Shown here piece by piece: positions 7,260 through 59,596 of a DNA stretch of 64,000 bases; position 1 is the first letter of the stretch; each line of letters begins with the position of its first letter. The DNA comes from Escherichia phage PJNS034: sequence record PP391266.1; one strand, given 5' to 3'. The translations under genes were made by a program, and so were the position numbers. The notes under the pieces were generated by a model. The model was not told the origin of the DNA, did no database searches, and worked only from the letters and a program-made list of their open reading frames with translations.

Positions 7260-7457
7260 ATGGCTGCTAAGCTGACAATTAAACGTACTGAAAAAGATAA
7301 CTTCCACATTCGCTTTGGTAACTTCGAAACTTACCTGACCTTTGTTGAACTGAGCGAAATCAGTGAACAAATTCGTGAAGTGGTAAGTGATGAAGAGTCT
7401 CGTCTGCTACAGGCAGAACTGAGCGGTTCTCTGGTTTGTGATGGTTGCACTATTTAA
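7260..7457 (+). CDS. hypothetical protein (65 aa)
   Basis: ORF-track ORF downstream of terminator, preceded by GAGG. Confidence 0.3.
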   Translation: MAAKLTIKRTEKDNFHIRFGNFETYLTFVELSEISEQIREVVSDEESRLLQAELSGSLVCDGCTI

Positions 7458-7460
7458 GGA

Positions 7461-7760
7461 ATGAAGATGGAAAAGTTAAAGATTGCAGGTTGTGGTAAAG
7501 TTCATCGTGAAGGTCGTTTCATTCACTTCGAAGTAAAACAGAAATCTCCCGGTTCTGCTTACCTGAAGGTAGTAGGCCAGATTCTGAATATCGTTGATGC
7601 TACTGGTCAGCGTGAGAACATCATCATTGACGTGAACAGTGACCACCCTGAGTTACATGCAATGCGAGCTAACTTGCATCGTATGCACCGTCATACTGGC
7701 ATCAAGGTAATGATTCGTCGTCATGGCGTACATGGCACTGTAACTGAGTTCGGGTGGTAA
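7461..7760 (+). CDS. hypothetical protein (99 aa)
   Basis: ORF-track ORF. Confidence 0.3.
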   Translation: MKMEKLKIAGCGKVHREGRFIHFEVKQKSPGSAYLKVVGQILNIVDATGQRENIIIDVNSDHPELHAMRANLHRMHRHTGIKVMIRRHGVHGTVTEFGW

Positions 7761-7761
7761 T

Positions 7762-7983
7762 ATGGAATTAGAGGTTGGTCGTCGCTATAAAGTGCTTTAC
7801 CGTAATTACAAAGGTGAATGGGCTTGGCGTAAGATTGAAGTCATTGGCTTCAACTTCAAGGTCAACACATTCCATAGCCCACAGGAGGCTCTATACTTAA
7901 CTGTGCTGGACGTAGAGCGTGAAGTAGTACGAGACTTCAAACCGTCTGACATTCGTGCTGTAACTCGCAAGGGAGCGAAATGA
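7762..7983 (+). CDS. hypothetical protein (73 aa)
   Basis: ORF-track ORF. Confidence 0.3.
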   Translation: MELEVGRRYKVLYRNYKGEWAWRKIEVIGFNFKVNTFHSPQEALYLTVLDVEREVVRDFKPSDIRAVTRKGAK

Positions 7984-8131
7984 CAGTATATGTCTTAATG
8001 GTTGAGAACCAAGTTGAAAGTGAGTGGGTGTTTGAGATGGACTCTATCTACTCCACTCACGAGAAAGCAACTGCGGCAGGGAAAGCCTTGCCAAGTGATT
8101 TTAATTTCTATGTCGAACCGATGGAGGTCGA

Positions 8132-8404
8132 ATGAGCGCATTAAATACTATGGTTGGTGGTTCACACTATCAGGCAGAAGGTGGCATTCAGCCGATTCAG
8201 TTCTACCACGCAAATCCACAGTTGAACTTTCAACAGTGTAATATGATTAAGTATGCTTTCCGTCACAAAGATAAGAACGGTTTGCAGGACTTACTCAAGG
8301 TTGTGCATTATGCCATGCTGGAGGCAGAGTTCCATTATCCGAAAGAAGATGTTGAGAAGTGGAAGTTACAGGTAGCGAATCTGATTGACCCACCTGCTTT
8401 TTGA
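8132..8404 (+). CDS. hypothetical protein (90 aa)
   Basis: ORF-track ORF. Confidence 0.3.
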   Translation: MSALNTMVGGSHYQAEGGIQPIQFYHANPQLNFQQCNMIKYAFRHKDKNGLQDLLKVVHYAMLEAEFHYPKEDVEKWKLQVANLIDPPAF

Positions 8405-8463
8405 TGTTACATTGGCTTTATTGATTCAGAACAATTTTAATTTCCATTCCAAGGTGGCAATAC

Positions 8464-8772
8464 ATGAACATGATTTACTCTAACGCACATTACGCAATCT
8501 ACTTCGTACCGAACGGTACTCCTGAGAAAGAACACGACTTTACCAAGCAGTTCACCATCGTGAATATGCACCTCGGTACTGTCGAAGCTCAGGTTGGTTC
8601 TTTCCCACATGCTGTACAGTATTGCGATGTGTTTGCTGCTGATTGGGAAGCACTGGTAATGAATGCAAAAGGCCAGTTCAATCCTGAGATTCAGGGCAAC
8701 GATAATGGTGCTGATAAAGCCGAAGCAAAAGCTGGTCTGAAACTGGCAACTGTGGATGGTGAAAACGTATAA
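8464..8772 (+). CDS. hypothetical protein (102 aa)
   Basis: ORF-track ORF; stop overlaps start of exonuclease gene. Confidence 0.3.
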   Translation: MNMIYSNAHYAIYFVPNGTPEKEHDFTKQFTIVNMHLGTVEAQVGSFPHAVQYCDVFAADWEALVMNAKGQFNPEIQGNDNGADKAEAKAGLKLATVDGENV

Positions 8773-10450: not shown

Positions 10451-11092
10451 ATGACAAAGCAGAAACCTCTGACGTTGCAGAACGCATCATGTCAGAACTC
10501 AAAAACTACATCAAAATGCGTGATGATGCACAACGTTCTCTGGAGAAAGCTAATGCGTAAGGTTTATATTGCAGGTCATATGTTAACTCGTGGTGCTCAG
10601 ATGCAACGTGCTGAGGAACGTGAGCTGGTATCTTCTTTGGGTCATCAACTCTACAACCCAATGGACAACAAGGAAATTAACGACAAGAAGCTCCACAAGG
10701 ACGATACAGGGCTGGCTGAACGAATCGTTAAGCAAGACACCGACGCTATTTTCTGGGCTGATACAGTGCTGATTGAGCCGCTTGCTGAGGCAAATGGCAC
10801 TCTGGTTGAGTTAGGACAGATTAAAGGTATGAAAGACCTCGCCAAGAAGCTGATGGAGTTACCTGCAACAAATGAGATTGAGTTCGCTGACCAAGCAATT
10901 GAATTGCTCAAACGAATCCTAGACCAGAAGGTTGTTGCTCACTTCGAAGATATCCGACGTGTCGAAGGTATCACCGAAACAGGCGACCGTCGCTCTCTTG
11001 GCATTAACCAGTATGTATATGGTACTGTCCTTGACCTGACAGATGGCAAAGGCTTCACTGAGTTTAAAGACTTGCCGGAGGCTCTTGCTTGA
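10451..11092 (+). CDS. nucleoside 2-deoxyribosyltransferase / Rcl(DNPH1)-like N-glycosidase family protein
   Basis: VYIAGHM near N-terminus and DTDAIFWADTVLIEPLAEANGTLVELGQ match the Rossmann-like core and Glu-containing active-site stretch of this family as recalled; true start probably the internal Met (codon 35). Confidence 0.55.
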   Translation: MTKQKPLTLQNASCQNSKTTSKCVMMHNVLWRKLMRKVYIAGHMLTRGAQMQRAEERELVSSLGHQLYNPMDNKEINDKKLHKDDTGLAERIVKQDTDAIFWADTVLIEPLAEANGTLVELGQIKGMKDLAKKLMELPATNEIEFADQAIELLKRILDQKVVAHFEDIRRVEGITETGDRRSLGINQYVYGTVLDLTDGKGFTEFKDLPEALA

Positions 11093-11751
11093 ACTGGAGA
11101 TTAATATGGTCAGTCTTTGCCGTGCTATCCATTCTGTTTGGGTGCGTTGTTTCAAAAGCAAGTTACGAAGTAATGGCGACGTCCCTAGTGGGCGTCATGT
11201 TCGTGATAGGGGTAGCCTTCAAGAAAGCAAGTGCGAATCTTTTGGGGGCTATACTGTGCGCTATGCTTGGGTTGATGAGCTGGCAAGCTGGATACTACAT
11301 GAACGCGATTATCAACATCTTCTTATTGCTACCACTCCAGTTATTAGCTTACGCCAATTGGACGACAGGGGTGTCGAAGCGAGAGCATCACAGGTACTTG
11401 GTGGAAACGGTCTGTCGCAAACGATTCTTGATTTACACATGTTGGCTAATTCCTCTCTTGGTAGCCGCATACTTCTCAGGCAGCCGTTTGTGGGTACACG
11501 ATGCTGTGACAGCCTCACTTGTGATTGTCGCAACACTTCTCCTCATGTTCAATACCAAAGAGCAATGGCAATTCTGGATTCCATACAATCTGGTAGAAGT
11601 CTTCATGTGGTTCATCGCAGCGAGTACAGCCCCTGAAATGCTTGCAATTATGTTCATGCGTATTGTATTCTTCATTAACAGTCTGATTGGCTATTACGAA
11701 TGGAGGAACGATGGCAATCCACGGACGCTACTTTCGACAGAAACCCGCTGA
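11089..11751 (+). CDS. PnuC-like nicotinamide riboside transporter (putative)
   Basis: 220-aa polytopic membrane protein; C-terminal LIGYYEWRN resembles the PnuC IYGWYEW signature; start overlaps stop of upstream Rcl-like gene. Confidence 0.45.
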   Translation: MNWRLIWSVFAVLSILFGCVVSKASYEVMATSLVGVMFVIGVAFKKASANLLGAILCAMLGLMSWQAGYYMNAIINIFLLLPLQLLAYANWTTGVSKREHHRYLVETVCRKRFLIYTCWLIPLLVAAYFSGSRLWVHDAVTASLVIVATLLLMFNTKEQWQFWIPYNLVEVFMWFIAASTAPEMLAIMFMRIVFFINSLIGYYEWRNDGNPRTLLSTETR

Positions 11752-40748: not shown

Positions 40749-41204
40749 TTAGTTACTTTCTGGAACAGCAACAGTCAGCTTAATACCAGCCAACTTGTCT
40801 GCAATCATCTTGTCCAGCTCTTCAGCAGTCAGTTCTTCATCATTCTTAATGTCCACTTCAACAGAAGCAGCTTTAGGATAGACGATATCGACCAGCTTCA
40901 TAGCAGCCATCAGACGCTCTTTAGGAGTAGCTGTGGGGCTTTCCATCACATCAATGAGGTATTCATCAGGGCGAATACGAGCGTTTGCTATAGCGTCTAA
41001 CATTTGCTGTGTGAGCTTGTTACGGGAGCCTTTCTTACGACCGCGACCAAAATTATTGCCGGGTAAGAAGGTGTTTTTGACAAGATTTCGACCTTTCGAG
41101 CAGGGATGGCCTTCTTCACTGAAAAATTCAATGGTTTTGCCTTTATACTCGTCTCCTACGCTGAGATGAGAGTAATCATCCACATAAGTCTTTTCATTAG
41201 ACAT
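40749..41204 (-). CDS. terminase small subunit (putative)
   Basis: First gene of the leftward block, directly upstream of the large subunit; basic GRGRKKGSRNKLTQ segment. Confidence 0.5.
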   Translation of the reverse strand: MSNEKTYVDDYSHLSVGDEYKGKTIEFFSEEGHPCSKGRNLVKNTFLPGNNFGRGRKKGSRNKLTQQMLDAIANARIRPDEYLIDVMESPTATPKERLMAAMKLVDIVYPKAASVEVDIKNDEELTAEELDKMIADKLAGIKLTVAVPESN

Positions 41205-42072
41205 TCATGCCACCTAATAATGGGGTTAGTTGAAAGATACACTGTAAGATGGAACCATTCATGCCAGTTCATCTACATGCCATGTCATAAGTATACACTG
41301 ATAAGAGGCTATCATGCCACCTCATACATGCCAGTCCATACTTCTGTGGGGATATAGGTAAGAGATGCTACATCTTACACTACTTATACCTATTATTTCC
41401 CTTCGGAATATAATGTTTAGGGTACAGGAAGAAGTGCCATATGACAAGACTTATTTACCAATTGAATTACAAATTCAGTGAATTTATAAGTGTGAGATAA
41501 CAAAGTGTGGATATTGCTCACTTTTTAACCAGAAACGTAAATTTCACTTGAGCGGTATGTGGCATATCAGCTTTAGCATAATGTTCAAAAAGGGGGAACG
41601 GGTTCCGCTCATGTTCCGGCGTGTGAATGAGGCGTGTAGACTACCACTAGCCCCTACCCTGAGTCAATACCCTCACTGGTCTGATGAGTGTGACTGCTCA
41701 AGTAGTAACCGTGTGATGCCGTGTGATGAGTACCCATCGTGCATAGTTATTCATGATAATTTATTTTTGGATAGCCTGAATAAATAATAGCCAGTGACCC
41801 GTTAGAATCTGCGTGCGTGTCTGATACTGCCTGAGTTATACCTCCATAACGCCAACGTTTAAACGGTGTATTGATAACGGGTAACAAGCCAGCGACAAGT
41901 GAATAAATATTCCAAGAGATAGCATATCTAATCAATCTATCTTCTCTTTATTCCTTTTACAGTGTAATTCTTATTTGTTTATAAGTAATAATTCTCCTCG
42001 ACCTATTGACAATTACCGTCGAGTAAATTACGCGTGTGTTTCATTACGTCTTAAAGAAATGATTTGTTTGTT

Positions 42073-42100
42073 TTGCTATTGACTTTTTAACTCATTCGTT
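42073..42100 (+). promoter_or_regulatory. sigma70-type promoter (TTGACT-16-TAATAT)
   Basis: Hexamers read directly from sequence. Confidence 0.5.
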
Positions 42101-42161
42101 TAATATAGCTCCCCGTTGAAACGCAGAACATCGCGGAGTAAACAAGTTAATCACTAAGTGG

Positions 42162-42190
42162 TTGACTGAATCGGGTTAGTATGTTTTAAT
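42162..42190 (+). promoter_or_regulatory. sigma70-type promoter (TTGACT-17-TTTAAT)
   Basis: Hexamers read directly; followed by AACGCTCTTTAA leader motif. Confidence 0.4.
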
Positions 42191-42371
42191 GCTTACCGAT
42201 TCAAACGCTCTTTAAAAATGTGGTCTGTCTTTAGGTGGTGTTTAACATCATTACTACAAGGCGCTTAGTTAGTTATCTGGTTTTGATTCCTGTTTCATTA
42301 GTGATTCAGGCGGATTGATAAAGCATCTTCAATAAGTCTTTAACAGTTCGATACTTCGAAGAAATTAACGA

Positions 42372-42399
42372 TTGACAGCGTACTAGATTCCTGTAAGAT
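42372..42399 (+). promoter_or_regulatory. sigma70-type promoter (TTGACA-16-TAAGAT)
   Basis: Consensus -35; followed by AACGCTCTTTAA leader motif. Confidence 0.5.
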
Positions 42400-42517
42400 A
42401 GACCACGTTTTAACGCTCTTTAACAATATGAATCATTAACGCTTAAACGTTAGTTTAATCAGACGTTATCAAGTGAAGCTGAAAAGTAACACGATAACAA
42501 ATGATGAAAATAAACGG

Positions 42518-42545
42518 TTGACAGCGTGAAATGATTCGGTATAAT
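42518..42545 (+). promoter_or_regulatory. strong sigma70-type promoter (TTGACA-16-TATAAT)
   Basis: Both hexamers perfect consensus. Confidence 0.65.
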
Positions 42546-43026
42546 GAGCGCCATCGAATGACAGAACGTTGTCAGACGATAGCCGGATAAGTGGATAACT
42601 TATAACGGCAGTTCGATAAAGTAGTGTGGTAGCGGGTAGCGGTATGTAACACGGATAATCTACGGATTAACGGCTTATTTGTTGCTTGCTTAAAGCATAA
42701 AACGTCGGGCGGCACGATGGGAGAAGTGCATAAAATCAATTAGGCTCCCTGACTCTTTAACAATTAGGAAACTACGCACCACAATTAACGTTGGATAACG
42801 TAAAGAGTGGGTTAATTTAGGGTGATTCCCTGCGTAGGCTTGTCGAGCTGATAACAGCGGTATGTGATGGACGCTTATATACTCCCTCCATGATAGTGTA
42901 TGACTGATTCCACCTAGGCCAAAGTGAAAGGGCGATAACGAATAGCAAGTAACAATCTCGTTTGATATGGGCATTTAATAGTGAGTGTCCAGATTAAACG
43001 ATAAAACTGAATTGAGGATTAAACCT

Positions 43027-43608
43027 ATGTCTATCTTAATTGCTGACCTGATTCGTAACGCTGACGGTGTTAACTCTCTGGCTGACTCTATCCAGTCCGA
43101 AGGTAAAAAGCTGGATAACATGATTCATCTGGCGCTGGCTTCTGCTACTGTTCTGGTGCATGAGCATGGCGATGTTACCGTGTTAAACCGTGTCATTAAC
43201 AAGCTGTCTTCTGGTGTCCGTACCAATGCGGCTCGTGCTTTCGCTGAAACTTTCGCTCCGGTAACTTTCGATAAGAAAGCAAAAGAGTTCCGCTTCAACA
43301 AACACAAACGCAATGAAGCATTCATTGACAGTGAAGCGGCGAAAGAAATGTGTGAAACTGTCTGGACTAAATTCCGTCCTGAGCCTGAGTATAAGCCAAT
43401 GAATCTGGCTGACTCTTTCACTAAGCTGATTGACCGTGCCGCTAACGATATGGATAAGAACGACACCATTTCCGAAGCACAAATCGCTCTGCTGCGCTCT
43501 TTCCAAGAGCAATTGGTAACACTCCAGACCAAAGAAGCGGCTGAACGTGATGCGGCAAAGGCACAAGCTGCAATCGCTGACGCTCCGGCTGAGGAAGTAG
43601 CGGCATAA
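43027..43608 (+). CDS. first early protein (193 aa), function unknown
   Basis: First ORF downstream of the promoter cluster; ATG 43027 with GAGG upstream (ORF track starts at GTG 42985); followed by a hairpin. Confidence 0.5.
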   Translation: MSILIADLIRNADGVNSLADSIQSEGKKLDNMIHLALASATVLVHEHGDVTVLNRVINKLSSGVRTNAARAFAETFAPVTFDKKAKEFRFNKHKRNEAFIDSEAAKEMCETVWTKFRPEPEYKPMNLADSFTKLIDRAANDMDKNDTISEAQIALLRSFQEQLVTLQTKEAAERDAAKAQAAIADAPAEEVAA

Positions 43609-43632
43609 GATAGGCGATAGTCTATAAACATC

Positions 43633-43670
43633 TAGCCCCTTGCATTGAATAAATGTGAGGGGCTTTTTGT
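43633..43670 (+). terminator. terminator-like hairpin after first early gene
   Basis: agcccct...aggggct stem with large loop, then tttttgttt. Confidence 0.4.
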
Positions 43671-43681
43671 TTATGTACTGA

Positions 43682-44002
43682 ATGGAATTAATCCGCATGA
43701 CTCCTTTACAGATTAGACGTAACGCCAAACGTAAGGCGGCAGCAATGAAACAAGTTGTAACTCTCAAGTCTAAGCGTGAGAAAACTTTACTCATTACTCC
43801 ACCTGACGATGTTAAAAAGATTGTGGATAACTTTAAGTTCCCATCTGGTAAAACGTTTCGGGCTGTTCCCACTCGCAACAAAGGCACTGATGCGAAAGGT
43901 GCTAGCAGTGCTGATAAGATTGCTTGCCGTGGTAAACAGAAGTGTAAAGGGTCTAGCGTTAGGCCGTCTGGTTGGTATAGCAAGTCACAATTAGCGGGGT
44001 AA
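43682..44002 (+). CDS. basic protein (106 aa), possible nucleic-acid binding
   Basis: Lys/Arg-rich ORF. Confidence 0.35.
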   Translation: MELIRMTPLQIRRNAKRKAAAMKQVVTLKSKREKTLLITPPDDVKKIVDNFKFPSGKTFRAVPTRNKGTDAKGASSADKIACRGKQKCKGSSVRPSGWYSKSQLAG

Positions 44003-44003
44003 C

Positions 44004-44264
44004 ATGGCTGCGGGATATTTAGGCGGTGATTGTGTACACGGTGAGATTCAAGCCGTTGTAGATAACGCCGTTGACTTTGCCCGTTCTCAATTGAATTGTG
44101 GCGAGTCAGAAATGTTTTGTCTTGAATGTGATGAAGAAATCCCACAAGCAAGGCGTGAGGTTGCGAAAGGCTGCAAGTATTGTATTACCTGCCAGTCTAA
44201 GCACGATAGAAAACAAGCCAGCCAATTCAACAGGCGAGGCAGTAAAGATAGTCAATTGAGGTAA
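44004..44264 (+). CDS. DksA/TraR-family C4 zinc-finger protein
   Basis: FCLECDEEIPQARREVAKGCKYCITC matches the C-x2-C...C-x2-C TraR/DksA zinc finger as recalled. Confidence 0.7.
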   Translation: MAAGYLGGDCVHGEIQAVVDNAVDFARSQLNCGESEMFCLECDEEIPQARREVAKGCKYCITCQSKHDRKQASQFNRRGSKDSQLR

Positions 44265-44268
44265 TAGA

Positions 44269-44850
44269 ATGAGTCAGTGGTCTGAGTTTTACAAAGGGCG
44301 TCTAGGTGGACGCTATCAAGCCCACGTTTTAAAGCAGTATGCCCCATTCATCAATCGAATCATTCAGGCTGGGCGTGGTATCAGTTCGCCAGTGGTTAAC
44401 TTCCGTGAGGAGGGCGCTGGTATTGGTACGGTTACGGCTATCCTGCAACAATATGCTGAGTCTCGCTTTGACTTAGACAACTGGAAGTTTGAAATGGTTG
44501 ACCGTTGCCCTGAAATGGCTGAGTTAGCTTTTCAAAATACCGGTGTACGCTGTGAGATATTCGATATCCTTAAACGGCGTGAAATGCTGGATTCTTTACG
44601 GCCTCACATTATCCATTCTCATGGTGTACTTGAACACTTCGAGGACGATGATATACGGGCAATCATTGACAATCAGCGTACACTTGCAAAGTCTTGTGTA
44701 ATTGCATACGTTCCCACTAACGGCTATGAAAAGCCTAGCTTCGGTGATGAACGGCTCTTAGATGTGAAACATTGGGTCAAAGAGTTTAGACCTACAGATG
44801 TTCACGCTTTCAACAATGGCTGCGACCTGATGCTTTACTGGCGGGCGTAG
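44269..44850 (+). CDS. hypothetical protein (193 aa)
   Basis: ORF-track ORF; weak Gly-rich loop EEGAGIG. Confidence 0.35.
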   Translation: MSQWSEFYKGRLGGRYQAHVLKQYAPFINRIIQAGRGISSPVVNFREEGAGIGTVTAILQQYAESRFDLDNWKFEMVDRCPEMAELAFQNTGVRCEIFDILKRREMLDSLRPHIIHSHGVLEHFEDDDIRAIIDNQRTLAKSCVIAYVPTNGYEKPSFGDERLLDVKHWVKEFRPTDVHAFNNGCDLMLYWRA

Positions 44851-44928
44851 TTTACTACTGTGACGGGTGGCTCTTATGGTCGAGTATGGTGAAGAAGATT
44901 TTGTTAAGGCGGCTAATCGCTTCTGGCT

Positions 44929-45171
44929 TTGGGTCGCTATCGTTGGGACTGTAATTATCTGGGCGGTGTGCTGATGGAAGTATTAACAATGTTCGCTGTG
45001 TTCGTCATAGAGCTTCTCTGGGTGCATCCTATGGCATTCTTCGCAGACTTAGGTGCTGCGGGTCACTTTGGCTGGTCTTTGGCCTTCCTGATGGTGTACG
45101 GGCTGTTTATCGCTACGTTGCCATACAATATCCTCAAGCTATTCATTAAACGTAAGGAAATCCCTGCATGA
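44929..45171 (+). CDS. small membrane protein (80 aa)
   Basis: Two hydrophobic helices. Confidence 0.3.
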   Translation: MGRYRWDCNYLGGVLMEVLTMFAVFVIELLWVHPMAFFADLGAAGHFGWSLAFLMVYGLFIATLPYNILKLFIKRKEIPA

Positions 45172-52645: not shown

Positions 52646-53455
52646 ATGACGATTCGCCTGATTACTCTTGGTGCTGACCCTGAAACTATTGTTGCTCGCA
52701 ACGGTGTTCCAACTCACGCTATTGGTCTTATCGGCGGTACTAAGGAAGAACCACGTAAGATTATCCGTGGTGGTCGTGAAGTTGGTGCGGTGCAGGAAGA
52801 TAATGTCCTGTATGAGTTCAACATCATGCCACACGATACTCGTCAGGGATTCATTGACAACATTCAGCAGATGTTGGAAGTGGGTCGTGAGATTCTGGGT
52901 GATGGTTACGAAATCACTAATAAGACTTCTCACATCTTCTCTGATGAAGACATGGCTCATTTCCCTGACTCAGCGTTTATCTTCGGTTGTGAACCGGATT
53001 TCTTCGCTGGTAATGGTGAGATGAATCCGAAGCCTGCTGCACCGTGGCCGGGTCTGCGTACCGCAGGTGGTCATGTTCACTTCGGGTTCGATGAGCGTGT
53101 AGTTCGTGATGATGAGAATGTTCGTTCTCTGATTCAACTGTGCGATATGTATATGGCGTTGCCGTCAATGCTTCTGGACACTGACGACCTGCGTAAAGAA
53201 CTGTATGGTAAGGCCGGTGCATTCCGTCCGAAAGCATATGGTGCTGAATATCGTACACTGTCAGGTTTCTGGATTCATAATCCTGAAAATACTGGCTTCG
53301 TGTTTGACCAAGCGCAGAAAGCGTATGATGCGTTGGCAACTGGTCTGGGTCGTGAGATGTTGGCACGTTTCCCATACGAACTGGTTGTCGATATCATCAA
53401 CAGCAATGACCGTGGACGTGCTGAACGTGCCCTGAAAGTTATGCAGGTTGCATAA
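52646..53455 (+). CDS. amidoligase-like protein, divergent (269 aa)
   Basis: GADPETIV and TAGGHVHFGF parallel the GLELELE and STHVHLD segments of the downstream amidoligase-like ORF; preceded by conserved leader. Confidence 0.4.
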   Translation: MTIRLITLGADPETIVARNGVPTHAIGLIGGTKEEPRKIIRGGREVGAVQEDNVLYEFNIMPHDTRQGFIDNIQQMLEVGREILGDGYEITNKTSHIFSDEDMAHFPDSAFIFGCEPDFFAGNGEMNPKPAAPWPGLRTAGGHVHFGFDERVVRDDENVRSLIQLCDMYMALPSMLLDTDDLRKELYGKAGAFRPKAYGAEYRTLSGFWIHNPENTGFVFDQAQKAYDALATGLGREMLARFPYELVVDIINSNDRGRAERALKVMQVA

Positions 53456-53637
53456 TGGAAGAAGGTCTGCTGATTAGCTGGGTTGAATCTCCAGCGAACC
53501 GTAAGACCAAGACTCATACCCTCTTCTTCGAAAGCCTGGACGAGGGTTATGAGTTCATGGCCTCTAAAAGTTGTGTAATTCAAGTACAACGCATTCCACT
53601 GGTGAGAAAGAATGGCGAAACTGGTAACGGTAAATAA
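53455..53637 (+). CDS. hypothetical protein (60 aa)
   Basis: ORF-track ORF, start overlaps previous stop. Confidence 0.25.
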   Translation: MEEGLLISWVESPANRKTKTHTLFFESLDEGYEFMASKSCVIQVQRIPLVRKNGETGNGK

Positions 53638-53803
53638 CGCAGATAAAACTGTAACTCGTCGTGTCTTTATGGACAACGAAGAGGGTATCATGTGGGCAGT
53701 TGACCAAGCCCGCACAGCACTGTCAGTCGTGACTGATGATGTGGAAGTGGTCGAGGCTTCCAGCCGTAAAGGTTGGGAAGGTCATATCGCATGTGATTGC
53801 TAA
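53612..53803 (+). CDS. hypothetical protein (63 aa)
   Basis: ORF-track ORF. Confidence 0.25.
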   Translation: MAKLVTVNNADKTVTRRVFMDNEEGIMWAVDQARTALSVVTDDVEVVEASSRKGWEGHIACDC

Positions 53804-53827
53804 TTTAAACTGAACGAGAGAACTAAA

Positions 53828-54436
53828 ATGTCAATCAATATGTCAAGTGGTGATTTACGTCTGTATTGGGGTGGGTGTTATGCACCTGTTGCATGGGATG
53901 CAGCAGATAGTGGCGTAGCAACACTGGTAATTCACGACGTTCGTGTGATAAATCCAATGTCACGTGACTACACCGAAGCACGAGTTCAAGGTGAACTATT
54001 CTTCATTCGTAATGGAGAAGAGGCTCGTGGTAATTTTGAAGGTCGTATGTCTGACCTCCTCGGTGATGGGTTCACCACTCCTCAACGCAATATCGGTTAT
54101 ATCCGTGTTCACGGTCAACCGTATTGGATTACCTTCAAACGTCGTCGTACAAATCGTAAAGGCATCACCAATGACCGTCTGGCTGTGTATGTAGCTGGGC
54201 ATCGTGGTGAAGCAGGTTTGAACTTCGGTAGTGATGTGTTGTGTCGTCTGTATGCAACCTTTGATGGTCGTATCTCTGATGATTTCTGTATTCATCAGAA
54301 CATGATTCATTATAAAGGTGTGGTTGTCGGACGTTATGAGCGTCACAATCGTATTGTATTAGCTGAACGTTTTGCGTATCTTAGCTGGTCGCTGGAACGT
54401 ATCGGTGGTTACGACGTAACGGTGGAGGTTGAGTAA
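53828..54436 (+). CDS. hypothetical protein (202 aa) inside ligase cluster
   Basis: Preceded by conserved TTAAACTGAACGAG leader; stop overlaps amidoligase start. Confidence 0.4.
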   Translation: MSINMSSGDLRLYWGGCYAPVAWDAADSGVATLVIHDVRVINPMSRDYTEARVQGELFFIRNGEEARGNFEGRMSDLLGDGFTTPQRNIGYIRVHGQPYWITFKRRRTNRKGITNDRLAVYVAGHRGEAGLNFGSDVLCRLYATFDGRISDDFCIHQNMIHYKGVVVGRYERHNRIVLAERFAYLSWSLERIGGYDVTVEVE

Positions 54437-55260
54437 TGATTATTGCTGACATTTTAGGGCATGGTCGTGGGTCGGATGTTGTTGATACGCATCCGTTGAT
54501 TGTTGGTCGAGGCCGTGTAGGACTCGAATTAGAACTGGAGAATATGCCAAATGCTCGACAAGCTGCTGGTTGGACAGTTACTGGTGACGGTTCTCTGCGT
54601 AATAGCGGCGTGGAATATGTACTCCGTGGTGCTCAGGGAGGTATGGAGTTATTTAATTCGATACTTTCTCTGGAAGAAGCACTCATGGCACATCAATGTG
54701 ATGCTAACCTTCGCTGCTCTACTCACGTTCACCTTGATATACGTCGGCTCACTGTGGCTCAACTCAAGCGTTTACTTCTGGCTTATACAGTCTTTGAGCC
54801 ATTAATCTTTGAGTTGTCCGGTGCGCATCGTCGTACTAACAACTTCTGTCCGTCGTTTAGTTTCGCTCAGCAACAAATTCGTAAGCTGAGTAACAACTGG
54901 CATCATGATGGTGAACGATTCCTTGCTCGTATTGTGGAAGGTCGTGACCGCCAATCCAGTGATAAGTATTCAGCACTGAATCTGGTTCCAATCTTCACTC
55001 AGGGTTCTGTAGAGTTCCGTGGTGCAGAAGCGAAGCCAAGTGCAGGTAAGATGATTCGTCTGGCTAACCGTATTCTAAGTCTGTATGACTTAGCGGTTAA
55101 CTCTGATATGAATCAGTCTGATGCTGAGTTCATTAACTCACTGGCGAACCTTGATGTTCAACAGGCATTGATGGGTACGATTCCTCGTGACTTCGAACTC
55201 AGCGAAGAACTGGTGAATGAAGGACGTGTCTTAGCGTTCGATATTATCTCTCTGGGGTGA
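54436..55260 (+). CDS. amidoligase (Amidoligase_2 / carboxylate-amine ligase-like) protein
   Basis: VGLELELE...DGSLRNSGVEYV...STHVHLD resembles the putative amidoligase family (glutamine-synthetase-like fold) as recalled. Confidence 0.5.
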   Translation: MIIADILGHGRGSDVVDTHPLIVGRGRVGLELELENMPNARQAAGWTVTGDGSLRNSGVEYVLRGAQGGMELFNSILSLEEALMAHQCDANLRCSTHVHLDIRRLTVAQLKRLLLAYTVFEPLIFELSGAHRRTNNFCPSFSFAQQQIRKLSNNWHHDGERFLARIVEGRDRQSSDKYSALNLVPIFTQGSVEFRGAEAKPSAGKMIRLANRILSLYDLAVNSDMNQSDAEFINSLANLDVQQALMGTIPRDFELSEELVNEGRVLAFDIISLG

Positions 55261-55261
55261 C

Positions 55262-55477
55262 ATGAGCTGGAACGAACGAGAGTATCGTAAACCAAAGTTG
55301 GGCACTGTATGTGTCCACTTCGAACCTTCGTATAAGTCAACCTTTGGAAGTACGAAGAAGTTCCCTAACGCATCGTTCTACTTGAGTACGAACGGTGTAA
55401 TCATCATCCGTGATATGGATGGTGACAACATCTGTGCATACCCTGAAGGTGTGTGGCTGAATGTTGAAATGAAGTGA
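55262..55477 (+). CDS. hypothetical protein (71 aa)
   Basis: ORF-track ORF; followed by a clean terminator hairpin. Confidence 0.3.
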   Translation: MSWNEREYRKPKLGTVCVHFEPSYKSTFGSTKKFPNASFYLSTNGVIIIRDMDGDNICAYPEGVWLNVEMK

Positions 55478-55485
55478 TTAACTCA

Positions 55486-55508
55486 AGCCCTTCTTCGGGA
55501 GGGTTTTA
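55486..55508 (+). terminator. Rho-independent terminator (cassette copy 3)
   Basis: 8-bp stem agcccttc/ggagggtt with ttcg loop, then tttta; preceded by AACTCAAG. Confidence 0.55.
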
Positions 55509-55563
55509 TGGTAATCATTACCACAAACTATTGAAACTAACTATTGAACTTGAGGAAAGTATT

Positions 55564-57156
55564 ATGTGCGGAATCGTTGGAATTATGCGTGGCGTTATGA
55601 CTGAAGGTATGGTGGACATGTTTGAACAACTGCTGTATGCAGATGTGTTCCGTGGCCCGCACTCCACTGGCGTCTATCGTGTTAATAAAGATGGTCAATC
55701 AGGGTTGTATAAGGATGCAGTACCTGCGTCTTTATATCTTGGCTCGAAAGGCTGGGATGATTTACGTGGGAATCTGAATGGAACTGCTGGTCATCAGGCA
55801 CTGTCTCAAGTTTATGTTGGTCATAACCGTTGGGCAACTGTAGGTGCAGTTAACGCTGTGAACTCACATCCATTCAAGTGCGGTAACATCACGATGGTAC
55901 ACAATGGTACTGTTGCGAAGTGGCGTTTGAATGACCACCTGAAGTATGACGTTGATAGTCATGCGGTGTGTGCGATGTTGGATTCACATGGTCTGGCTGA
56001 AACTCTGAAAGTTCTGGATGGTAAGTTTACTCTGGTGTGGCATGACGCATCTGATAACACCATGAACTTTATCCGTAATGCAGAACGTCCTCTGCACATG
56101 GTTGAGTTCACTGATGGTGGTTGGGCGTTTGCATCAGAAGGTGAGATGTTAACGTGGATTAATGGTCGTCGTAAGACCCCGTTTGGTATTAAACGTGCTT
56201 TCGAACTGCCAGTTGGCTTCCATCATAAATTCCAGTTATCCGCGAGCAAAGTAGAGCTTGCGGAGGTCGTTAAGTACGAACTCCCAAAGTTCACCAGCTA
56301 CGCCAGCAACAGCACGTATTATCCAAACCGAAGCTCAGTCGCAAGCAGCAGCGCAAGCTCAACAAACTCAGAAAGCGCAACCGCTAGACGTGTGCGTCTG
56401 ATGAAAGAGTGGGGCATTGACGTTGGAGACCGCAAAGATGTAGAGAACATGATTGTGTCTCTGGATAACATCGCGTTCACAGCGTACTCAACCAATGCAG
56501 CATCAGGTCGTATTGATGCAGACGCATGGGGTTACGATGAAGCTGTTGATGCCTGTGATGCTGGTCATATGGAAATTGACTGTAAGCGTGGTGGTAAAAC
56601 TGAAGATGTTCAGGTAACAGTTTACGGTGTTGATACTGTTAAGTGGAAAGACAACTACTCTCAGGGCGACCGTCTGTACGGTAAGATTGACAGTGTGTTT
56701 GAATCCACTGAGCATGGCAAGACTCGTCTTCGTATCACTTTGAAACCACTGACTCTGTGTACTGAGTTGGCTGATGGCGTTGAAGCCTTTAATGAGAAAG
56801 TGTTCCCGCTCCTCATTAAGAAAGAGGCCGAAAAGGTTGATGCCGACAAAAGTAAATCAGATGTTGCAGGAAGCACTGGAAGCGCAGGAACTGCAACTGG
56901 TCAGGGAACTCAGTTATCGGTTGTAGTGGATAACACTGCAAAAAAGCCGGAAGGTACGGACTCATCAAGCGGCTCGCCGAACTTGTTCAACATGTCCGCA
57001 ATTCCAATGAGTCTTAAAGACTTGCGTGAAGACAAGCTGAGTTGTGCTTGGTGCGGAAATGCAATCCACGAACATAACTACGAAATGTCTGATATGTTCT
57101 TTAAATCTCACATCTGCCCAGATTGTGCCAAGGAGTTACCGGGTTATGGCGACTGA
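55564..57156 (+). CDS. class II (Ntn-type) glutamine amidotransferase-like protein with C-terminal zinc ribbon
   Basis: Begins MCGIVGI (Cys directly after Met, hallmark of N-terminal nucleophile amidotransferases); Ser-rich linker; C-terminal CAWCG...CPDC; start moved to internal ATG with GAGG upstream. Confidence 0.7.
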   Translation: MCGIVGIMRGVMTEGMVDMFEQLLYADVFRGPHSTGVYRVNKDGQSGLYKDAVPASLYLGSKGWDDLRGNLNGTAGHQALSQVYVGHNRWATVGAVNAVNSHPFKCGNITMVHNGTVAKWRLNDHLKYDVDSHAVCAMLDSHGLAETLKVLDGKFTLVWHDASDNTMNFIRNAERPLHMVEFTDGGWAFASEGEMLTWINGRRKTPFGIKRAFELPVGFHHKFQLSASKVELAEVVKYELPKFTSYASNSTYYPNRSSVASSSASSTNSESATARRVRLMKEWGIDVGDRKDVENMIVSLDNIAFTAYSTNAASGRIDADAWGYDEAVDACDAGHMEIDCKRGGKTEDVQVTVYGVDTVKWKDNYSQGDRLYGKIDSVFESTEHGKTRLRITLKPLTLCTELADGVEAFNEKVFPLLIKKEAEKVDADKSKSDVAGSTGSAGTATGQGTQLSVVVDNTAKKPEGTDSSSGSPNLFNMSAIPMSLKDLREDKLSCAWCGNAIHEHNYEMSDMFFKSHICPDCAKELPGYGD

Positions 57157-57439
57157 TAAAATTGTAATTCGTATGCCGAAAGACGACATTGAATGTGAGC
57201 GGAAATATCCGTTCACTTACTTCATGAATGCAGCGCTGCGTGGTATGCAGCGTCGCTACTCTGAACAAGCGTCGGCAAAGTTTGGTAGTGAAGTTGAGAT
57301 TCTATTCCCAACTGCATTATCAAAAATGATTCATGACCACATGGTCACTCTGTATCAACAGGAAGGATTCGAACTCGCTGAAGAAGATTTCGAAGACTCC
57401 GAACAATACCGCAAATATCTGAAACTAATTAAGGGCTAA
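57146..57439 (+). CDS. hypothetical protein (97 aa)
   Basis: ATG overlapping the amidotransferase stop; ORF-track frame. Confidence 0.35.
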   Translation: MATDKIVIRMPKDDIECERKYPFTYFMNAALRGMQRRYSEQASAKFGSEVEILFPTALSKMIHDHMVTLYQQEGFELAEEDFEDSEQYRKYLKLIKG

Positions 57440-57444
57440 AACAA

Positions 57445-58938
57445 ATGCTGCGTATCTTCAACTACAACAACGGTTCTCAAGGTCTGGGTGCTCTGCGTGA
57501 ACATGTAGAGCCATTGATTCGTGAGATGAATACTCATCGTGGTTTCCGTAACATTCGTCCGGTTATGGGTAGCGAGAATGGTTCTGCTCGTCTGTTTCAG
57601 GCGACTAACCGCTTCATTATGAACTGGGGTTCTTCGCAACCCCTGAACACTGATGAAAGCAACTTCGTTCTCAACAAACCGGAAGCTGTTGGTTTAGCAA
57701 CTCATAAACTCCGCTTCTTCCAACATGTTCACCAGTGGAACCAAGAGAAGATTGCTCAGGGTGTGAATGGCCTGACTGTTCCGATTCCTGAGTGGACAAC
57801 TTCTCGTGATGAAGCTCAGACTTGGGCAGGGCATGACCATCTGGTTTATGCCCGTCAACGTCTGCAAGGTCATAGCGGTGAAGGTATCGAAGTATACGGT
57901 ATCAATCAGGTTGTTGAACGTGCTCCACTGTACACCAAAGGCATCATCGGTGCTCGTCGTGAGTATCGTGTTCATGTCATTGCTGGTCAGGTGGCACTGG
58001 TTCAGTTGAAGAAACGCCGCAATGGTGGTGAGGCTGTGGGCAATGGTAATGACCATGTTCGTAACCTCGGCTCTGGTTGGGTGTATGCAGTAAGTGATGC
58101 TCGTCCATCACCAGTCGTATTGAGTGCAGCACAGAATGCAGTTCGTGCTCTGGGTCTGGACTTTGGTGCGGTAGACATTATCGCTAAAGGTCGTAAAGGT
58201 CAGGAGCGTGAGTGCTGGGTGTTGGAAGTTAACACTGCACCGGGTCAGCGTGGTGATACTACTGTGACGCTGTATGCTCGTGCTGTTGCATCGGCATATG
58301 CAATCTGGATGAATCGTGATAGCGTTGACGTCCGTGATTTAGGAGGTGTCAAAGCTGCATGGGAAACACTTCCTTGGCTGAACGATGAAACCTTCCTTGC
58401 TCTGATGCGTGATGAAGGTGCAGATGGTTCGGTACTTCTGCGTTCTCAGCGTGAAACTCAGGCAGCAGAGGCAGAAATGCCTAACACTGACGATGATGTG
58501 GCGGCAGATGAAAACTTTGCCCTTCCTGCTGATGAACTGACACCTGCTCGTGCAACCTCTGGTGCTCATGTAGTTCACACTGGTACTCGTTGGGTTGATG
58601 TAGAAGCAGCACCTCAAGTTCGTGCTGAGCCTGTACGTCGTCGTGACGGTGAGCCAATGCCGTTCAATGGTAATCCATTCGATGCACGTATTCGTCGTGA
58701 ACCTGCACCACGTCCTGCACCTGAACCGGTTGTAATGCCAGAACGTCGTGTCATGTTGTCTCGTCTGGGACAGAATGACCCACAGAACGAACAGTTCGTG
58801 GTATTCACATGGAACGGTCGTCGTGAAGTCGGTGTAGTCAATACTCGTCTGGGTGTTGTTTACATGGCTGGTAGCGAAGTTCAACTTCCACTGGCTCAGG
58901 TTGATTTGATTGCGGTAGTTGATACCGAAATTCGTTAA
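57445..58938 (+). CDS. ATP-grasp ligase (RimK-like) with ~200-aa C-terminal extension
   Basis: YRVHVIAG and GLDFGAVDII...VLEVNTAPG match the RimK/GshB-type ATP-grasp C-terminal motifs as recalled; C-terminal half Pro/Arg-rich, unassigned. Confidence 0.7.
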   Translation: MLRIFNYNNGSQGLGALREHVEPLIREMNTHRGFRNIRPVMGSENGSARLFQATNRFIMNWGSSQPLNTDESNFVLNKPEAVGLATHKLRFFQHVHQWNQEKIAQGVNGLTVPIPEWTTSRDEAQTWAGHDHLVYARQRLQGHSGEGIEVYGINQVVERAPLYTKGIIGARREYRVHVIAGQVALVQLKKRRNGGEAVGNGNDHVRNLGSGWVYAVSDARPSPVVLSAAQNAVRALGLDFGAVDIIAKGRKGQERECWVLEVNTAPGQRGDTTVTLYARAVASAYAIWMNRDSVDVRDLGGVKAAWETLPWLNDETFLALMRDEGADGSVLLRSQRETQAAEAEMPNTDDDVAADENFALPADELTPARATSGAHVVHTGTRWVDVEAAPQVRAEPVRRRDGEPMPFNGNPFDARIRREPAPRPAPEPVVMPERRVMLSRLGQNDPQNEQFVVFTWNGRREVGVVNTRLGVVYMAGSEVQLPLAQVDLIAVVDTEIR

Positions 58939-58967: not shown

Positions 58968-59189
58968 ATGTCGATTGAACCGAACGAGGAATATATGAAA
59001 GTATGGGTAGTTATGTTCCAAGAGTATGACCTAGCCGAAGTGCTGGAAATCTACTCGAAGGAAGAAGATGCTATAGCACATCGTCAGGCTGAAATTGATA
59101 AGAGCTTGTCATACGCTAAGAAGTGGAATGTCAAACCACACCCTGCGCTCGAACAGTTTTATACAATTCACGAAAAAGAGGTAAAGTAA
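58968..59189 (+). CDS. hypothetical protein (73 aa)
   Basis: ATG lies at the 3' edge of a hairpin whose loop carries GGAG. Confidence 0.3.
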   Translation: MSIEPNEEYMKVWVVMFQEYDLAEVLEIYSKEEDAIAHRQAEIDKSLSYAKKWNVKPHPALEQFYTIHEKEVK

Positions 59190-59596
59190 TGAGCAATTTA
59201 GTCGCTGTATATGGTTCCCTTCTGTCTGGTCTGCATAACCACGGTGTTATGGAACGTGCAAAGGGTAAGTTGATTGGTGCTGGTGAATCGGTGCAGAACA
59301 TCAACATGTATTCTCTGGGTGGTTTCCCTTCCATCTCTCTGGAACACTCCAGCCACGGTAATACAATTCGTGTTGAAGTATATGAAGTACCGGATGAAGG
59401 TATGCGTCCTCTGAATGCACTGGAAGGTTATCGTGGTGAAGATGGCCCGAACTTCTACAACCGCACTCCAATCAAAATTAAGATGGACAACGGTGATATG
59501 CTGGAAGCGTTCATCTATCACATCGACGAAACTCAATCCCATCCGGTTATTGATGGTGACTGGCGTAAATATCTGGAACAGCGAGGTCGTGCATAG
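59189..59596 (+). CDS. gamma-glutamyl cyclotransferase-like (AIG2/GGCT fold) protein
   Basis: N-terminal VAVYGSLL matches the YGS(L/N) signature; conserved Glu in LEGYRGE; start moved to internal ATG with AGAGG upstream. Confidence 0.6.
   Translation: MSNLVAVYGSLLSGLHNHGVMERAKGKLIGAGESVQNINMYSLGGFPSISLEHSSHGNTIRVEVYEVPDEGMRPLNALEGYRGEDGPNFYNRTPIKIKMDNGDMLEAFIYHIDETQSHPVIDGDWRKYLEQRGRA

What the first reader, a model, noticed from the sequence alone, without database searches (positions are those of the whole stretch)
44004..44264. DksA/TraR-type zinc finger among the first early genes
The C4 zinc-finger pattern matches the TraR/DksA family, which binds the RNA polymerase secondary channel. 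As the third gene behind strong host-type promoters it is well placed to reprogramme host transcription early in infection.
Basis: partly seen in the sequence, partly recalled or inferred. Interest (0 to 1): 0.35.

Follow-up and report, generated by a model that had tools for sequence, protein, structure and literature searches.

The report
YbiI-type zinc-finger early phage gene
This is a real, strongly conserved 86-residue zinc-finger gene of the DksA/TraR superfamily in a phage early operon, but it belongs to the uncharacterised YbiI branch, which lacks the acidic tip that TraR needs to regulate RNA polymerase, so it is an ordinary family member whose presumed action on host transcription is still unproven.

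Summary
The ORF at 44004-44264 (+) is real. It has CxxC-x17-CxxC and passes Pfam zf-dskA_traR (31.4 bits, cut-off 24.9). It is under strong purifying selection (dN/dS 0.068 against Pantoea phage TacPo2).

It is not a TraR or a DksA. It passes the NCBIfam YbiI equivalog (100.1 vs 96) and matches E. coli YbiI (PDB 2KGO) end to end. It fails the TraR (23 vs 108) and DksA (20 vs 105) models.

A profile comparison shows a shared core, residues 10-72 against TraR 7-70. This core includes the invariant IPxARR patch that in TraR contacts RNA polymerase. The ends differ:
- The DxxDxA tip is absent (1 of 118 family members has it).
- A family-specific MAxG[WFY] cap and a 100%-invariant tail, NRRGSKDSQLR, take its place at the two ends.

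The gene is third in the early arm. Upstream lies the window's only perfect sigma-70 promoter, and three rrn-type boxA copies sit in the same leader. A conserved terminator sits between gene 1 and the finger gene.

Homologues occur in 695 phage records, many annotated 'DksA-like zinc-finger protein'. RNA polymerase binding is plausible but inferred. This is a new member of a known kind, of modest interest.

The parts
44004..44264 (+). YbiI-type DksA/TraR-superfamily C4 zinc-finger gene (86 aa plus stop)
   Evidence: ORF; Pfam, PHROG, NCBIfam and PDB matches; dN/dS 0.068 vs TacPo2
44004..44030 (+). Residues 1-9 (MAAGYLGGD): family-specific N-terminal cap MAxG[WFY]..D. It replaces the DxxDxA tip of TraR.
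   Evidence: G4 is invariant and position 5 is always aromatic. All 118 members have an acidic residue at position 8 or 9, and none at position 6, the TraR D3 equivalent. This segment lies outside the hhalign core.
44031..44096 (+). Residues 10-31: predicted amphipathic helix, homologous to the TraR N-terminal helix (TraR 7-28)
   Evidence: hhalign register 10-72 vs TraR 7-70; conserved hydrophobic positions V11, I15, V19, A22, V23, A26, L30 and invariant R27; helix 16-29 in a low-confidence AF2 model
44118..44192 (+). Zinc ribbon, C39-x2-C42-x17-C60-x2-C63. It includes I46-P47-Q48-A49-R50-R51 (nt 44139-44156), the counterpart of TraR I44-P45-E46-A47-R48-R49.
   Evidence: The four Cys and R50 are invariant in 118 sequences; I46 and P47 are in 117 and R51 in 113. 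Residue mapping from the HMMER alignment to TraR chains 5W1S/6N57.
44229..44261 (+). Residues 76-86, NRRGSKDSQLR: C-terminal tail, absent from TraR and DksA
   Evidence: N76-Q84 and R86 are 100% identical in 118 phage and bacterial sequences; position 85 is L in 112 and I in 6. The tail is identical in E. coli YbiI.
42518..42545 (+). Context: consensus sigma-70 promoter, TTGACA-16-TATAAT. It has an upstream A-tract and a GC-rich discriminator, GAGCGCC.
   Evidence: The only 12/12 match in the window; conserved in TacPo2 and recognisable in Cronobacter phage A24. Function is inferred.
42752..42763 (+). Context: rrn-type boxA-like element (ACTCTTTAACAA). Further copies lie at 42207-42218 and 42415-42426.
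   Evidence: 3 matches against 0.49 expected, all on the + strand and all in the early leader. E. coli rrnB boxA was read. Copies also occur in TacPo2 and A24.
43634..43675 (+). Context: intrinsic terminator-like hairpin plus T-run between gene 1 and genes 2-3
   Evidence: 13-bp stem followed by TTTTTGTTTAT; outer stem and T-run conserved in TacPo2
43697..44002 (+). Context: gene 2, a basic orphan protein whose stop lies 1 nt before the zinc-finger ATG
   Evidence: ORF. The conserved start is ATG 43697. Homologues occur only in TacPo2, plus a partial match in LIMElight.
44269..44850 (+). Context: downstream gene, weakly SAM-methyltransferase-like, starting 4 nt after the finger gene
   Evidence: Sub-threshold Pfam methyltransferase hits. 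Found in only 13 phage records and not co-distributed with the finger gene.

Best explanation
The gene encodes a small zinc-ribbon protein of the YbiI branch of the DksA/TraR superfamily. It sits in the early, host-RNA-polymerase-transcribed arm of a virulent podophage related to Pantoea phage TacPo2 and Serratia phage KSP100.

Most likely mechanism (inferred): it docks on host RNA polymerase the way TraR does. [quoted passage not shown] It would change initiation kinetics without ppGpp and without binding DNA.

The acidic DxxDxA tip is replaced by a different conserved cap, and an invariant basic tail is added. Its effect on the enzyme is therefore probably not identical to TraR's.

Shown: family membership, the conserved core, the divergent ends, purifying selection and the early-arm position. 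Inferred: zinc binding, RNA polymerase binding, early timing and any effect on transcription.
For: - Family: Pfam above gathering score; the YbiI equivalog NF008243 is passed over the full length; full-length match to solved YbiI 2KGO and a partial match to TraR in RNAP complexes 5W1S and 6N57.
- Shared core: hhalign of 118 YbiI-like against 16 TraR-type sequences gives 99.3% probability, E=1.8e-20, with 10-72 aligned to TraR 7-70.
- Binding patch: TraR P45, R48 and R49 are needed for binding RNAP or for the beta' Si3 contact (PMC6970531, PMC9239242). Their counterparts P47, R50 and R51 are (nearly) invariant.
- Experiment on a relative: over-expressed E. coli YbiI rescues dksA auxotrophy (PMC2613031, data not shown).
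- Constraint: dN/dS is 0.068. This is also the best-conserved early gene against the distant relative A24, at 65% identity versus 30% for gene 1.
- Position: it lies in the first few kb of the early arm here, in TacPo2 and in A24. Upstream are the only perfect sigma-70 promoter and boxA-like elements.
- No phage RNA polymerase or sigma factor was recognised in the ORFs tested. The phage therefore appears to depend on the host enzyme.
Against: - The DxxDxA motif is absent here and in 117 of 118 relatives. It is required for TraR, lambda Orf73 and VP882 TraR function, and DksA-family proteins lacking it were inactive (PMC9239242; bioRxiv 10.64898/2026.07.27.740977).
- The TraR, TraR-subfamily and DksA models are failed (23 vs 108, 44.5 vs 59.7, 20 vs 105).
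- The only functional statement on YbiI is 'data not shown', and its authors thought an iron-related role more likely (PMC2613031).
- No usable structure model was obtained (pLDDT 49.6).
- A terminator lies between the promoters and the gene.
- No expression or binding data exist.
Confidence: 0.45

Rival explanations
1. It binds the secondary channel or rim helices but acts as a passive competitor, like Rnk, rather than a TraR-like regulator. By occupying the site it would exclude DksA/ppGpp and the Gre factors. This would blunt the host stringent response, keeping rrn-type promoters active during infection, including the phage's own early promoters.
For: - The rim-helix patch IPxARR is kept while the catalytic-site tip DxxDxA is lost.
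- The phage early promoters look rrn P1-like, with a 16-bp spacer, a GC-rich discriminator, an A-tract and boxA. By established knowledge this is the promoter class that DksA/ppGpp inhibits.
- Rnk sets a precedent for a competing channel binder (PMC9239242, section 18).
Against: Reported YbiI over-expression rescues a dksA mutant rather than mimicking it (PMC2613031). This points to DksA-like activity, not anti-DksA activity. The strictly conserved N-cap and tail suggest an active role. There is no direct data.
Confidence: 0.2
2. YbiI-type proteins do not act on RNA polymerase at all. The zinc ribbon and helix are a scaffold, and the invariant termini bind some other highly conserved host partner. 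The phage copy would mimic or hijack a host stress-response protein: ybiI sits next to the iron genes fiu-ybiX and has a sigma-S SELEX site upstream.
For: - The most conserved parts of the family, MAxG[WFY] and NRRGSKDSQLR, have no counterpart in TraR or DksA.
- E. coli ybiI lies directly downstream of fiu-ybiX and has a sigma-S SELEX peak upstream (PMC5493296).
- The authors of PMC2613031 favoured an iron-related role.
- Not every C4 family member acts on RNA polymerase (PMC9239242, section 18).
Against: The TraR residues used for RNA polymerase contact are invariant. The dksA rescue report also argues against it (PMC2613031). No alternative partner is known. No conserved neighbouring gene was found across phages.
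Confidence: 0.3
3. The ORF is a chance open frame or a decaying gene with a fortuitous cysteine pattern.
For: None beyond its small size.
Against: E-values run from 1e-7 to 1e-29 against four independent libraries. dN/dS is 0.068. More than 4,500 homologues were found, and 695 phage records carry one.
Confidence: 0.01

Closest known systems
E. coli YbiI (b0803; PDB 2KGO; NCBIfam NF008243/PRK11019)
   Same: 44% identity over the full length, the same size (86 vs 88 aa), the same MAxG[WY] start, the same zinc ribbon and an identical NRRGSKDSQLR end.
   Different: The gene here is phage-borne. It belongs to an 86-aa phage-type group with Y/F at position 5, F25, C57 and a linker two residues shorter. 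It is 60-66% identical to other phage copies and 50-57% to bacterial ones. The function of YbiI itself is unknown.
F-plasmid TraR and its phage homologues (lambda Orf73, P2 Orf82, VP882 Orf61/TraR)
   Same: Homologous helix and C4 zinc-ribbon core (hhalign 99.3%). The P45, R48 and R49 equivalents are conserved. Both are small, mobile-element-encoded proteins placed in early or regulatory operons.
   Different: No DxxDxA tip, whereas D3 is invariant in the TraR-type alignment. The protein here has 3-4 extra N-terminal residues and an 11-residue invariant tail. It fails the TraR models. TraR-type genes are mostly in temperate phages of 30-55 kb; the YbiI type is mostly in large virulent phages.
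DksA
   Same: The same Pfam zinc-finger domain.
   Different: DksA is 151 aa with a two-helix coiled coil and ppGpp-binding residues. Only residues 38-70 here align to the DksA-like model, at 20 bits against a cut-off of 105.
PHROG_54 'DksA-like zinc-finger protein' of Straboviridae, jumbo phages and Grimontviridae (e.g. Cronobacter phage A24, Serratia phage BF)
   Same: Full-length homologues at 45-66% identity, usually among small early or accessory genes.
   Different: None of substance. The closest relative, TacPo2, annotates its copy only as a hypothetical protein.

Membership tests
DksA/TraR C4 zinc-finger superfamily (Pfam PF01258) | CxxC-x17-CxxC zinc ribbon scoring above the Pfam gathering threshold | tested here: met
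   C39, C42, C60, C63; 31.4 bits vs 24.9. The four Cys are invariant in 118 homologues.
DksA/TraR C4 zinc-finger superfamily (Pfam PF01258) | Zinc is actually bound | not testable with these tools
   Inferred from four invariant Cys and homology to the zinc-binding proteins YbiI and TraR.
YbiI subfamily (NCBIfam NF008243 / PRK11019) | Full-length match above the curated equivalog cut-off | tested here: met
   100.1 bits vs 96, residues 1-86 on profile 1-88. 2KGO matches at E=1.4e-17 over the full length.
YbiI subfamily (NCBIfam NF008243 / PRK11019) | Signature termini: N-terminal MAxG[WFY] and C-terminal NRRGSKDSQLR | tested here: met
   MAAGY... and ...NRRGSKDSQLR are present. G4 and N76-Q84/R86 are invariant in 118 sequences.
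TraR family of RNA polymerase regulators (as defined functionally in PMC9239242 and PMC6970531) | N-terminal helix tip with a DxxDxA motif reaching the active site | tested here: not met
   The sequence is GGDCVHGE. DxxDxA occurs in 1 of 118 YbiI-like sequences, whereas D3 is invariant in the TraR-type set. The tip lies outside the hhalign core. Only the D6-equivalent acidic residue (D9) is kept.
TraR family of RNA polymerase regulators (as defined functionally in PMC9239242 and PMC6970531) | Globular C4 domain with the R48/R49 (and P45) equivalents that contact the beta' rim helices and Si3 | tested here: met
   P47, R50 and R51 align to TraR P45, R48 and R49. They are present in 117, 118 and 113 of 118 sequences.
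TraR family of RNA polymerase regulators (as defined functionally in PMC9239242 and PMC6970531) | C-terminal helix that contacts beta Si1 | tested here: inconclusive
   Residues 60-72 align to TraR 58-70, but they are followed by a foreign 11-residue tail. No reliable structure model was obtained (pLDDT 49.6).
TraR family of RNA polymerase regulators (as defined functionally in PMC9239242 and PMC6970531) | Scores above the TraR family models | tested here: not met
   NF010268 scores 23.2 vs 108; TIGR02419 scores 44.5 vs 59.7.
TraR family of RNA polymerase regulators (as defined functionally in PMC9239242 and PMC6970531) | Binds RNA polymerase and changes initiation without ppGpp | not testable with these tools
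   The only support is indirect: YbiI over-expression rescues a dksA mutant (PMC2613031, data not shown).
DksA | A protein of about 150 aa with a two-helix coiled coil, a DxxDxA tip and ppGpp-binding residues | tested here: not met
   The protein is 86 aa. The DksA_like model NF033459 scores 20.4 vs 105 and matches only residues 38-70.

The most novel reading that the evidence does not exclude
YbiI-type proteins may be a functionally separate class within the DksA/TraR superfamily. Their working parts would be the invariant MAxG[WFY] cap and the NRRGSKDSQLR tail rather than an acidic helix tip.

In this phage lineage the gene is wired to an early control region that imitates a host rRNA operon: rrn P1-like promoters with a 16-bp spacer and a GC-rich discriminator, plus three boxA antitermination elements. 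On this reading the phage both borrows the host's rRNA transcription circuit and manipulates it. It would either switch that circuit off, giving host rRNA shut-off plus self-limiting early transcription, or shield it from DksA/ppGpp.
Probability: 0.2. Interest if true: 0.6.

Novelty: new member of a known kind. Interest (0 to 1): 0.3.

Why it matters
On its own the gene adds one more member to a family already annotated in hundreds of phages. Its value lies in sharpening the label. 'DksA/TraR-like' hides two different kinds of protein, and only the TraR kind has been shown to act on RNA polymerase.

The YbiI kind is common in virulent phages and in Gammaproteobacteria (Pseudomonas, enterobacteria and relatives) and has an extraordinarily conserved tail, yet it has no established function. 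A phage copy in a compact early operon, behind rRNA-like promoters, is a convenient system for finding out what YbiI proteins do.

Tried and rejected
**Structure**
- The single-sequence model was unusable (pLDDT 49.6), so no fold search was run.

**Genomic context of bacterial homologues**
- The window protein itself is not in that collection.

**A conserved partner gene, as with QisA and TraR in VP882**
- Genes downstream of the finger gene in Privateer and in BF are unrelated to each other.
- The methyltransferase-like neighbour occurs in only 13 phage records.
- Gene 2 is an orphan.
- Gene 2's weak Pfam hit to ribosomal protein S10 (E=0.027) got no support from a PDB sequence search at E<=10. 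I treat it as chance.

**Other negative searches**
- No defence-system match (PADLOC).
- No Rfam family in 41000-45000.
- No phiEco32-type sigma factor: the slot next to the gp40-like gene holds only small ORFs with no sigma domains.
- The late-promoter motif TAATGTATA, which I recalled from memory as the phiEco32 late-promoter motif, is not enriched.
- The 322-aa antisense ORF is spurious.
- Literature searches for a YbiI function found only the 2009 remark and regulon or SELEX listings.

**Lost tool**
- The scripting machine was lost, so the tblastn of phiEco32 proteins against the window was not completed.

Full report
**1. The observation**

The upstream gene ends with TAA at 44000-44002, one base before the ATG. 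The protein carries C39-x2-C42-x17-C60-x2-C63.

Four independent libraries recognise it:
- Pfam zf-dskA_traR: 31.4 bits against a gathering score of 24.9.
- PHROG_54 'DksA-like zinc-finger protein': E=8e-19.
- NCBIfam NF008243: 100.1 bits against a cut-off of 96.
- The solved structure of E. coli YbiI, 2KGO: E=1.4e-17 over the whole length.

Against the orthologue in Pantoea phage TacPo2 the protein is 93% identical, with dN/dS 0.068. That is the lowest of the four early genes compared. A long antisense ORF across the region is not kept open in TacPo2, so it is spurious. No second gene of this type exists in the window.

**2. Which kind of DksA/TraR protein it is**

The superfamily label hides distinct groups. 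This protein passes the YbiI equivalog model. It fails the TraR equivalog (23 vs 108 bits), the TraR-type subfamily model (44.5 vs 59.7) and the DksA-like model (20 vs 105). It is 44% identical to E. coli YbiI end to end.

I aligned 118 homologues from phages and from bacterial chromosomes such as Pseudomonas, Brenneria, Providencia and Morganella. The alignment shows:
- Invariant: G4, R27, the four Cys, R50, and the last eleven residues NRRGSKDSQLR apart from an occasional L85I.
- Position 5 is always aromatic.
- I46, P47, R51, G56 and Q64 are nearly invariant.

A profile-profile comparison against 16 TraR-type sequences (F-plasmid TraR, VP882, P2-like, Mannheimia, Pseudomonas and Vibrio phages) gave 99.3% probability and E=1.8e-20. 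The aligned core is residues 10-72 against TraR 7-70. The helix, the zinc ribbon and the start of the C-terminal helix are therefore homologous. The two ends are not.

**3. Testing the TraR mechanism feature by feature**

Cryo-EM and mutagenesis define three TraR elements (PMC6970531; PMC9239242):
- A globular C4 domain (28-57) that sits on the beta' rim helices. P45 and R48 contribute to binding; E46, R49 and K50 contact beta' Si3.
- A C-terminal helix (58-73) that contacts beta Si1.

From the HMMER alignment to TraR chains, the mapping is: I46=I44, P47=P45, Q48=E46, R50=R48, R51=R49. The binding patch is conserved, and invariant across the family.

The tip is not conserved. The sequence reads MAAGYLGGDCVHGE, and DxxDxA occurs in only 1 of 118 relatives. 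In my TraR-type alignment D3 is invariant. All 118 YbiI-like sequences keep one acidic residue at position 8 or 9, the D6 register. None has one at position 6, the D3 register.

Replacing the two aspartates abolishes growth suppression by VP882 TraR (bioRxiv 10.64898/2026.07.27.740977). DksA-family proteins lacking the motif were inactive (PMC9239242, section 18). The protein therefore cannot be filed as a TraR.

This lowers the claim 'it is a TraR'. It lowers 'it binds RNA polymerase' less. The only experimental statement on YbiI is that over-expression rescues the amino-acid auxotrophy of a dksA mutant. That was reported as data not shown, by authors who nevertheless favoured an iron-related role (PMC2613031).

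**4. Genomic setting**

The window is most of the genome of a podophage related to TacPo2 (82.8% nucleotide identity around the gene) and to Serratia phage KSP100 (portal proteins 89% and 93% identical, respectively). It is more distantly related to Grimontviridae such as Cronobacter phage A24 and Proteus phage Privateer, and to phiEco32-like phages.

Structural genes run leftward from about 41.2 kb. A 1.8-kb non-coding region follows, and then a rightward arm of small genes and replication genes. The finger gene is the third ORF of that arm.

The only 12/12 sigma-70 consensus match in the 64 kb is at 42518-42545, pointing rightward. It is conserved in TacPo2 and recognisable in A24. Two weaker promoter-like sites lie at 42079 and 42372.

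A terminator-like hairpin with a T-run at 43634-43675 separates gene 1 from genes 2-4. It too is conserved in TacPo2. The finger gene would therefore be expressed by read-through, probably at a lower level than gene 1.

In A24 the homologue is the seventh gene of the equivalent arm. It is by far the best-conserved early gene between the two phages, at 65% identity against 30% for gene 1. 'Early' is thus supported by position in three related genomes. No expression data were available.

I recognised no phage RNA polymerase or sigma factor in the ORFs tested. In Salmonella phage SE131 an ECF sigma factor sits next to the gp40-like gene. The same slot here holds only small ORFs.

**5. An unexpected feature of the upstream region**

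I read the E. coli rrnB leader for comparison. The motif repeated in the phage leader, (A)CGCTCTTTAA[C/A]AAT, turned out to be the rrn boxA, TGCTCTTTAACAA.

The window has three such copies within one mismatch, at 42207, 42415 and 42752. All are on the + strand and all lie inside the early leader. Only 0.49 are expected in the whole window, and 1 of 100 shuffles reached three.

TacPo2 has an exact copy. A24 has a one-mismatch copy directly after a TTGACT-16-TAATAC promoter in its own early leader.

The perfect promoter also has a 16-bp spacer, an upstream A-tract and a GC-rich discriminator (TATAAT-GAGCGCC-A). rrnB P1 reads TATAAT-GCGCCACC-A with a 16-bp spacer. That these features mark promoters sensitive to DksA/ppGpp and TraR is established knowledge from the rRNA-promoter literature. 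I recalled it; I did not test it here.

The early control region thus resembles a host rRNA operon. This makes a DksA/TraR-superfamily gene in the operon more interesting. It also offers a way past the terminator, through Nus-factor antitermination, which is an inference.

**6. Mechanism and rivals**

- *Best explanation (0.45).* The protein docks on host RNA polymerase through the conserved zinc ribbon and helix and alters initiation independently of ppGpp. Its tip chemistry differs, so the outcome may differ from TraR's.
- *Rival 1 (0.2).* It occupies the same site passively and excludes DksA and the Gre factors. This would protect rrn-like promoters, including the phage's own.
- *Rival 2 (0.3).* The invariant termini serve a different, unknown host partner, and the phage copy mimics a host stress protein. 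E. coli ybiI lies downstream of fiu-ybiX and has a sigma-S SELEX site upstream (PMC5493296).
- *Chance ORF.* Excluded.

**7. Comparison with what is known, and novelty**

Homologues occur in 695 of 50,697 phage records. Most are large virulent phages: Klebsiella, Acinetobacter, Aeromonas and Proteus T4-like phages, jumbo phages and Grimontviridae. Many are already annotated 'DksA-like zinc-finger protein' or 'DksA/TraR family C4-type zinc finger protein'.

TraR-type genes occur in 276 records, mostly temperate phages of 30-55 kb.

This gene is a new member of a known kind. In the closest relative it is still annotated as hypothetical. The refinement is the useful result: it is YbiI-type, not TraR-type, and the function of that type is unknown. 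The rrn-like early region is the more surprising observation, but it lies outside the finding as given.

**8. Limits**

- The scripting machine was lost.
- Zinc binding, RNA polymerase binding, timing of expression and boxA function are all inferred.

Noticed in passing
window 42207-42218, 42415-42426, 42752-42763 (+): Three rrn-type boxA-like elements (GCTCTTTAA[A/C]AA), all in the early leader, all in the sense orientation and each downstream of a sigma-70-like promoter. Only 0.49 are expected in the whole window. Copies also occur in the TacPo2 and A24 early leaders. This suggests Nus-factor antitermination of early transcripts.
   Followed up: partly
window 42496-42553 (+): The perfect promoter resembles rrnB P1. 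It has an A-rich UP-like tract (GAAAATAAACGG), a 16-bp spacer and a GC-rich discriminator (GAGCGCC) before a likely +1 A. The other two promoter-like sites (42079, 42372) also have 16-bp spacers.
   Followed up: partly
window 42552-42730 (+): The leader downstream of the perfect promoter folds at -57.7 kcal/mol (z = -4.9 against shuffles). By eye it is more conserved against TacPo2 than the rest of the intergenic region. It has no Rfam match. It could be a structured leader or an early small RNA.
   Followed up: partly
window 41202-41340: Five copies of a CAT(T/A)CATGCCA(C/G) repeat lie next to the start of the leftward gene at 40749-41204, spaced about 14-54 bp apart. They are conserved in TacPo2. 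They may be iterons, a packaging site or regulator-binding sites.
   Followed up: no
window 52646-58938 (+) and 59123-59596: A cluster of amidoligase-type genes: COOH-NH2 ligase, Amidoligase_2, a GlmS-like glutamine amidotransferase, an ATP-grasp RimK-like protein and a gamma-glutamyl cyclotransferase. Purpose unknown; possibly a modification pathway.
   Followed up: no
window 10451-11751 (+): A nucleoside 2-deoxyribosyltransferase-like gene and a PnuC nicotinamide mononucleotide transporter. Related Grimontviridae carry NAD-salvage genes in their early arms.
   Followed up: no
window 44269-44850 (+): A weakly SAM-methyltransferase-like gene starts 4 nt after the finger gene. It is rare, occurring in 13 phage records, one of them annotated as a tRNA cmo5U methyltransferase.
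   Followed up: partly
window 7260-8772 (+): In Salmonella phage SE131 (Grimontviridae) an ECF sigma factor sits between the gp40-like gene and the exonuclease. Here the same slot holds six small ORFs with no sigma domain, so this lineage may lack the phage sigma factor.
   Followed up: partly
window 43682-44002 (+): The first ATG of gene 2 (43682) is not conserved in TacPo2, so the likely start is ATG 43697. A weak Pfam hit to ribosomal protein S10 (E=0.027) was not supported by a PDB sequence search.
   Followed up: yes
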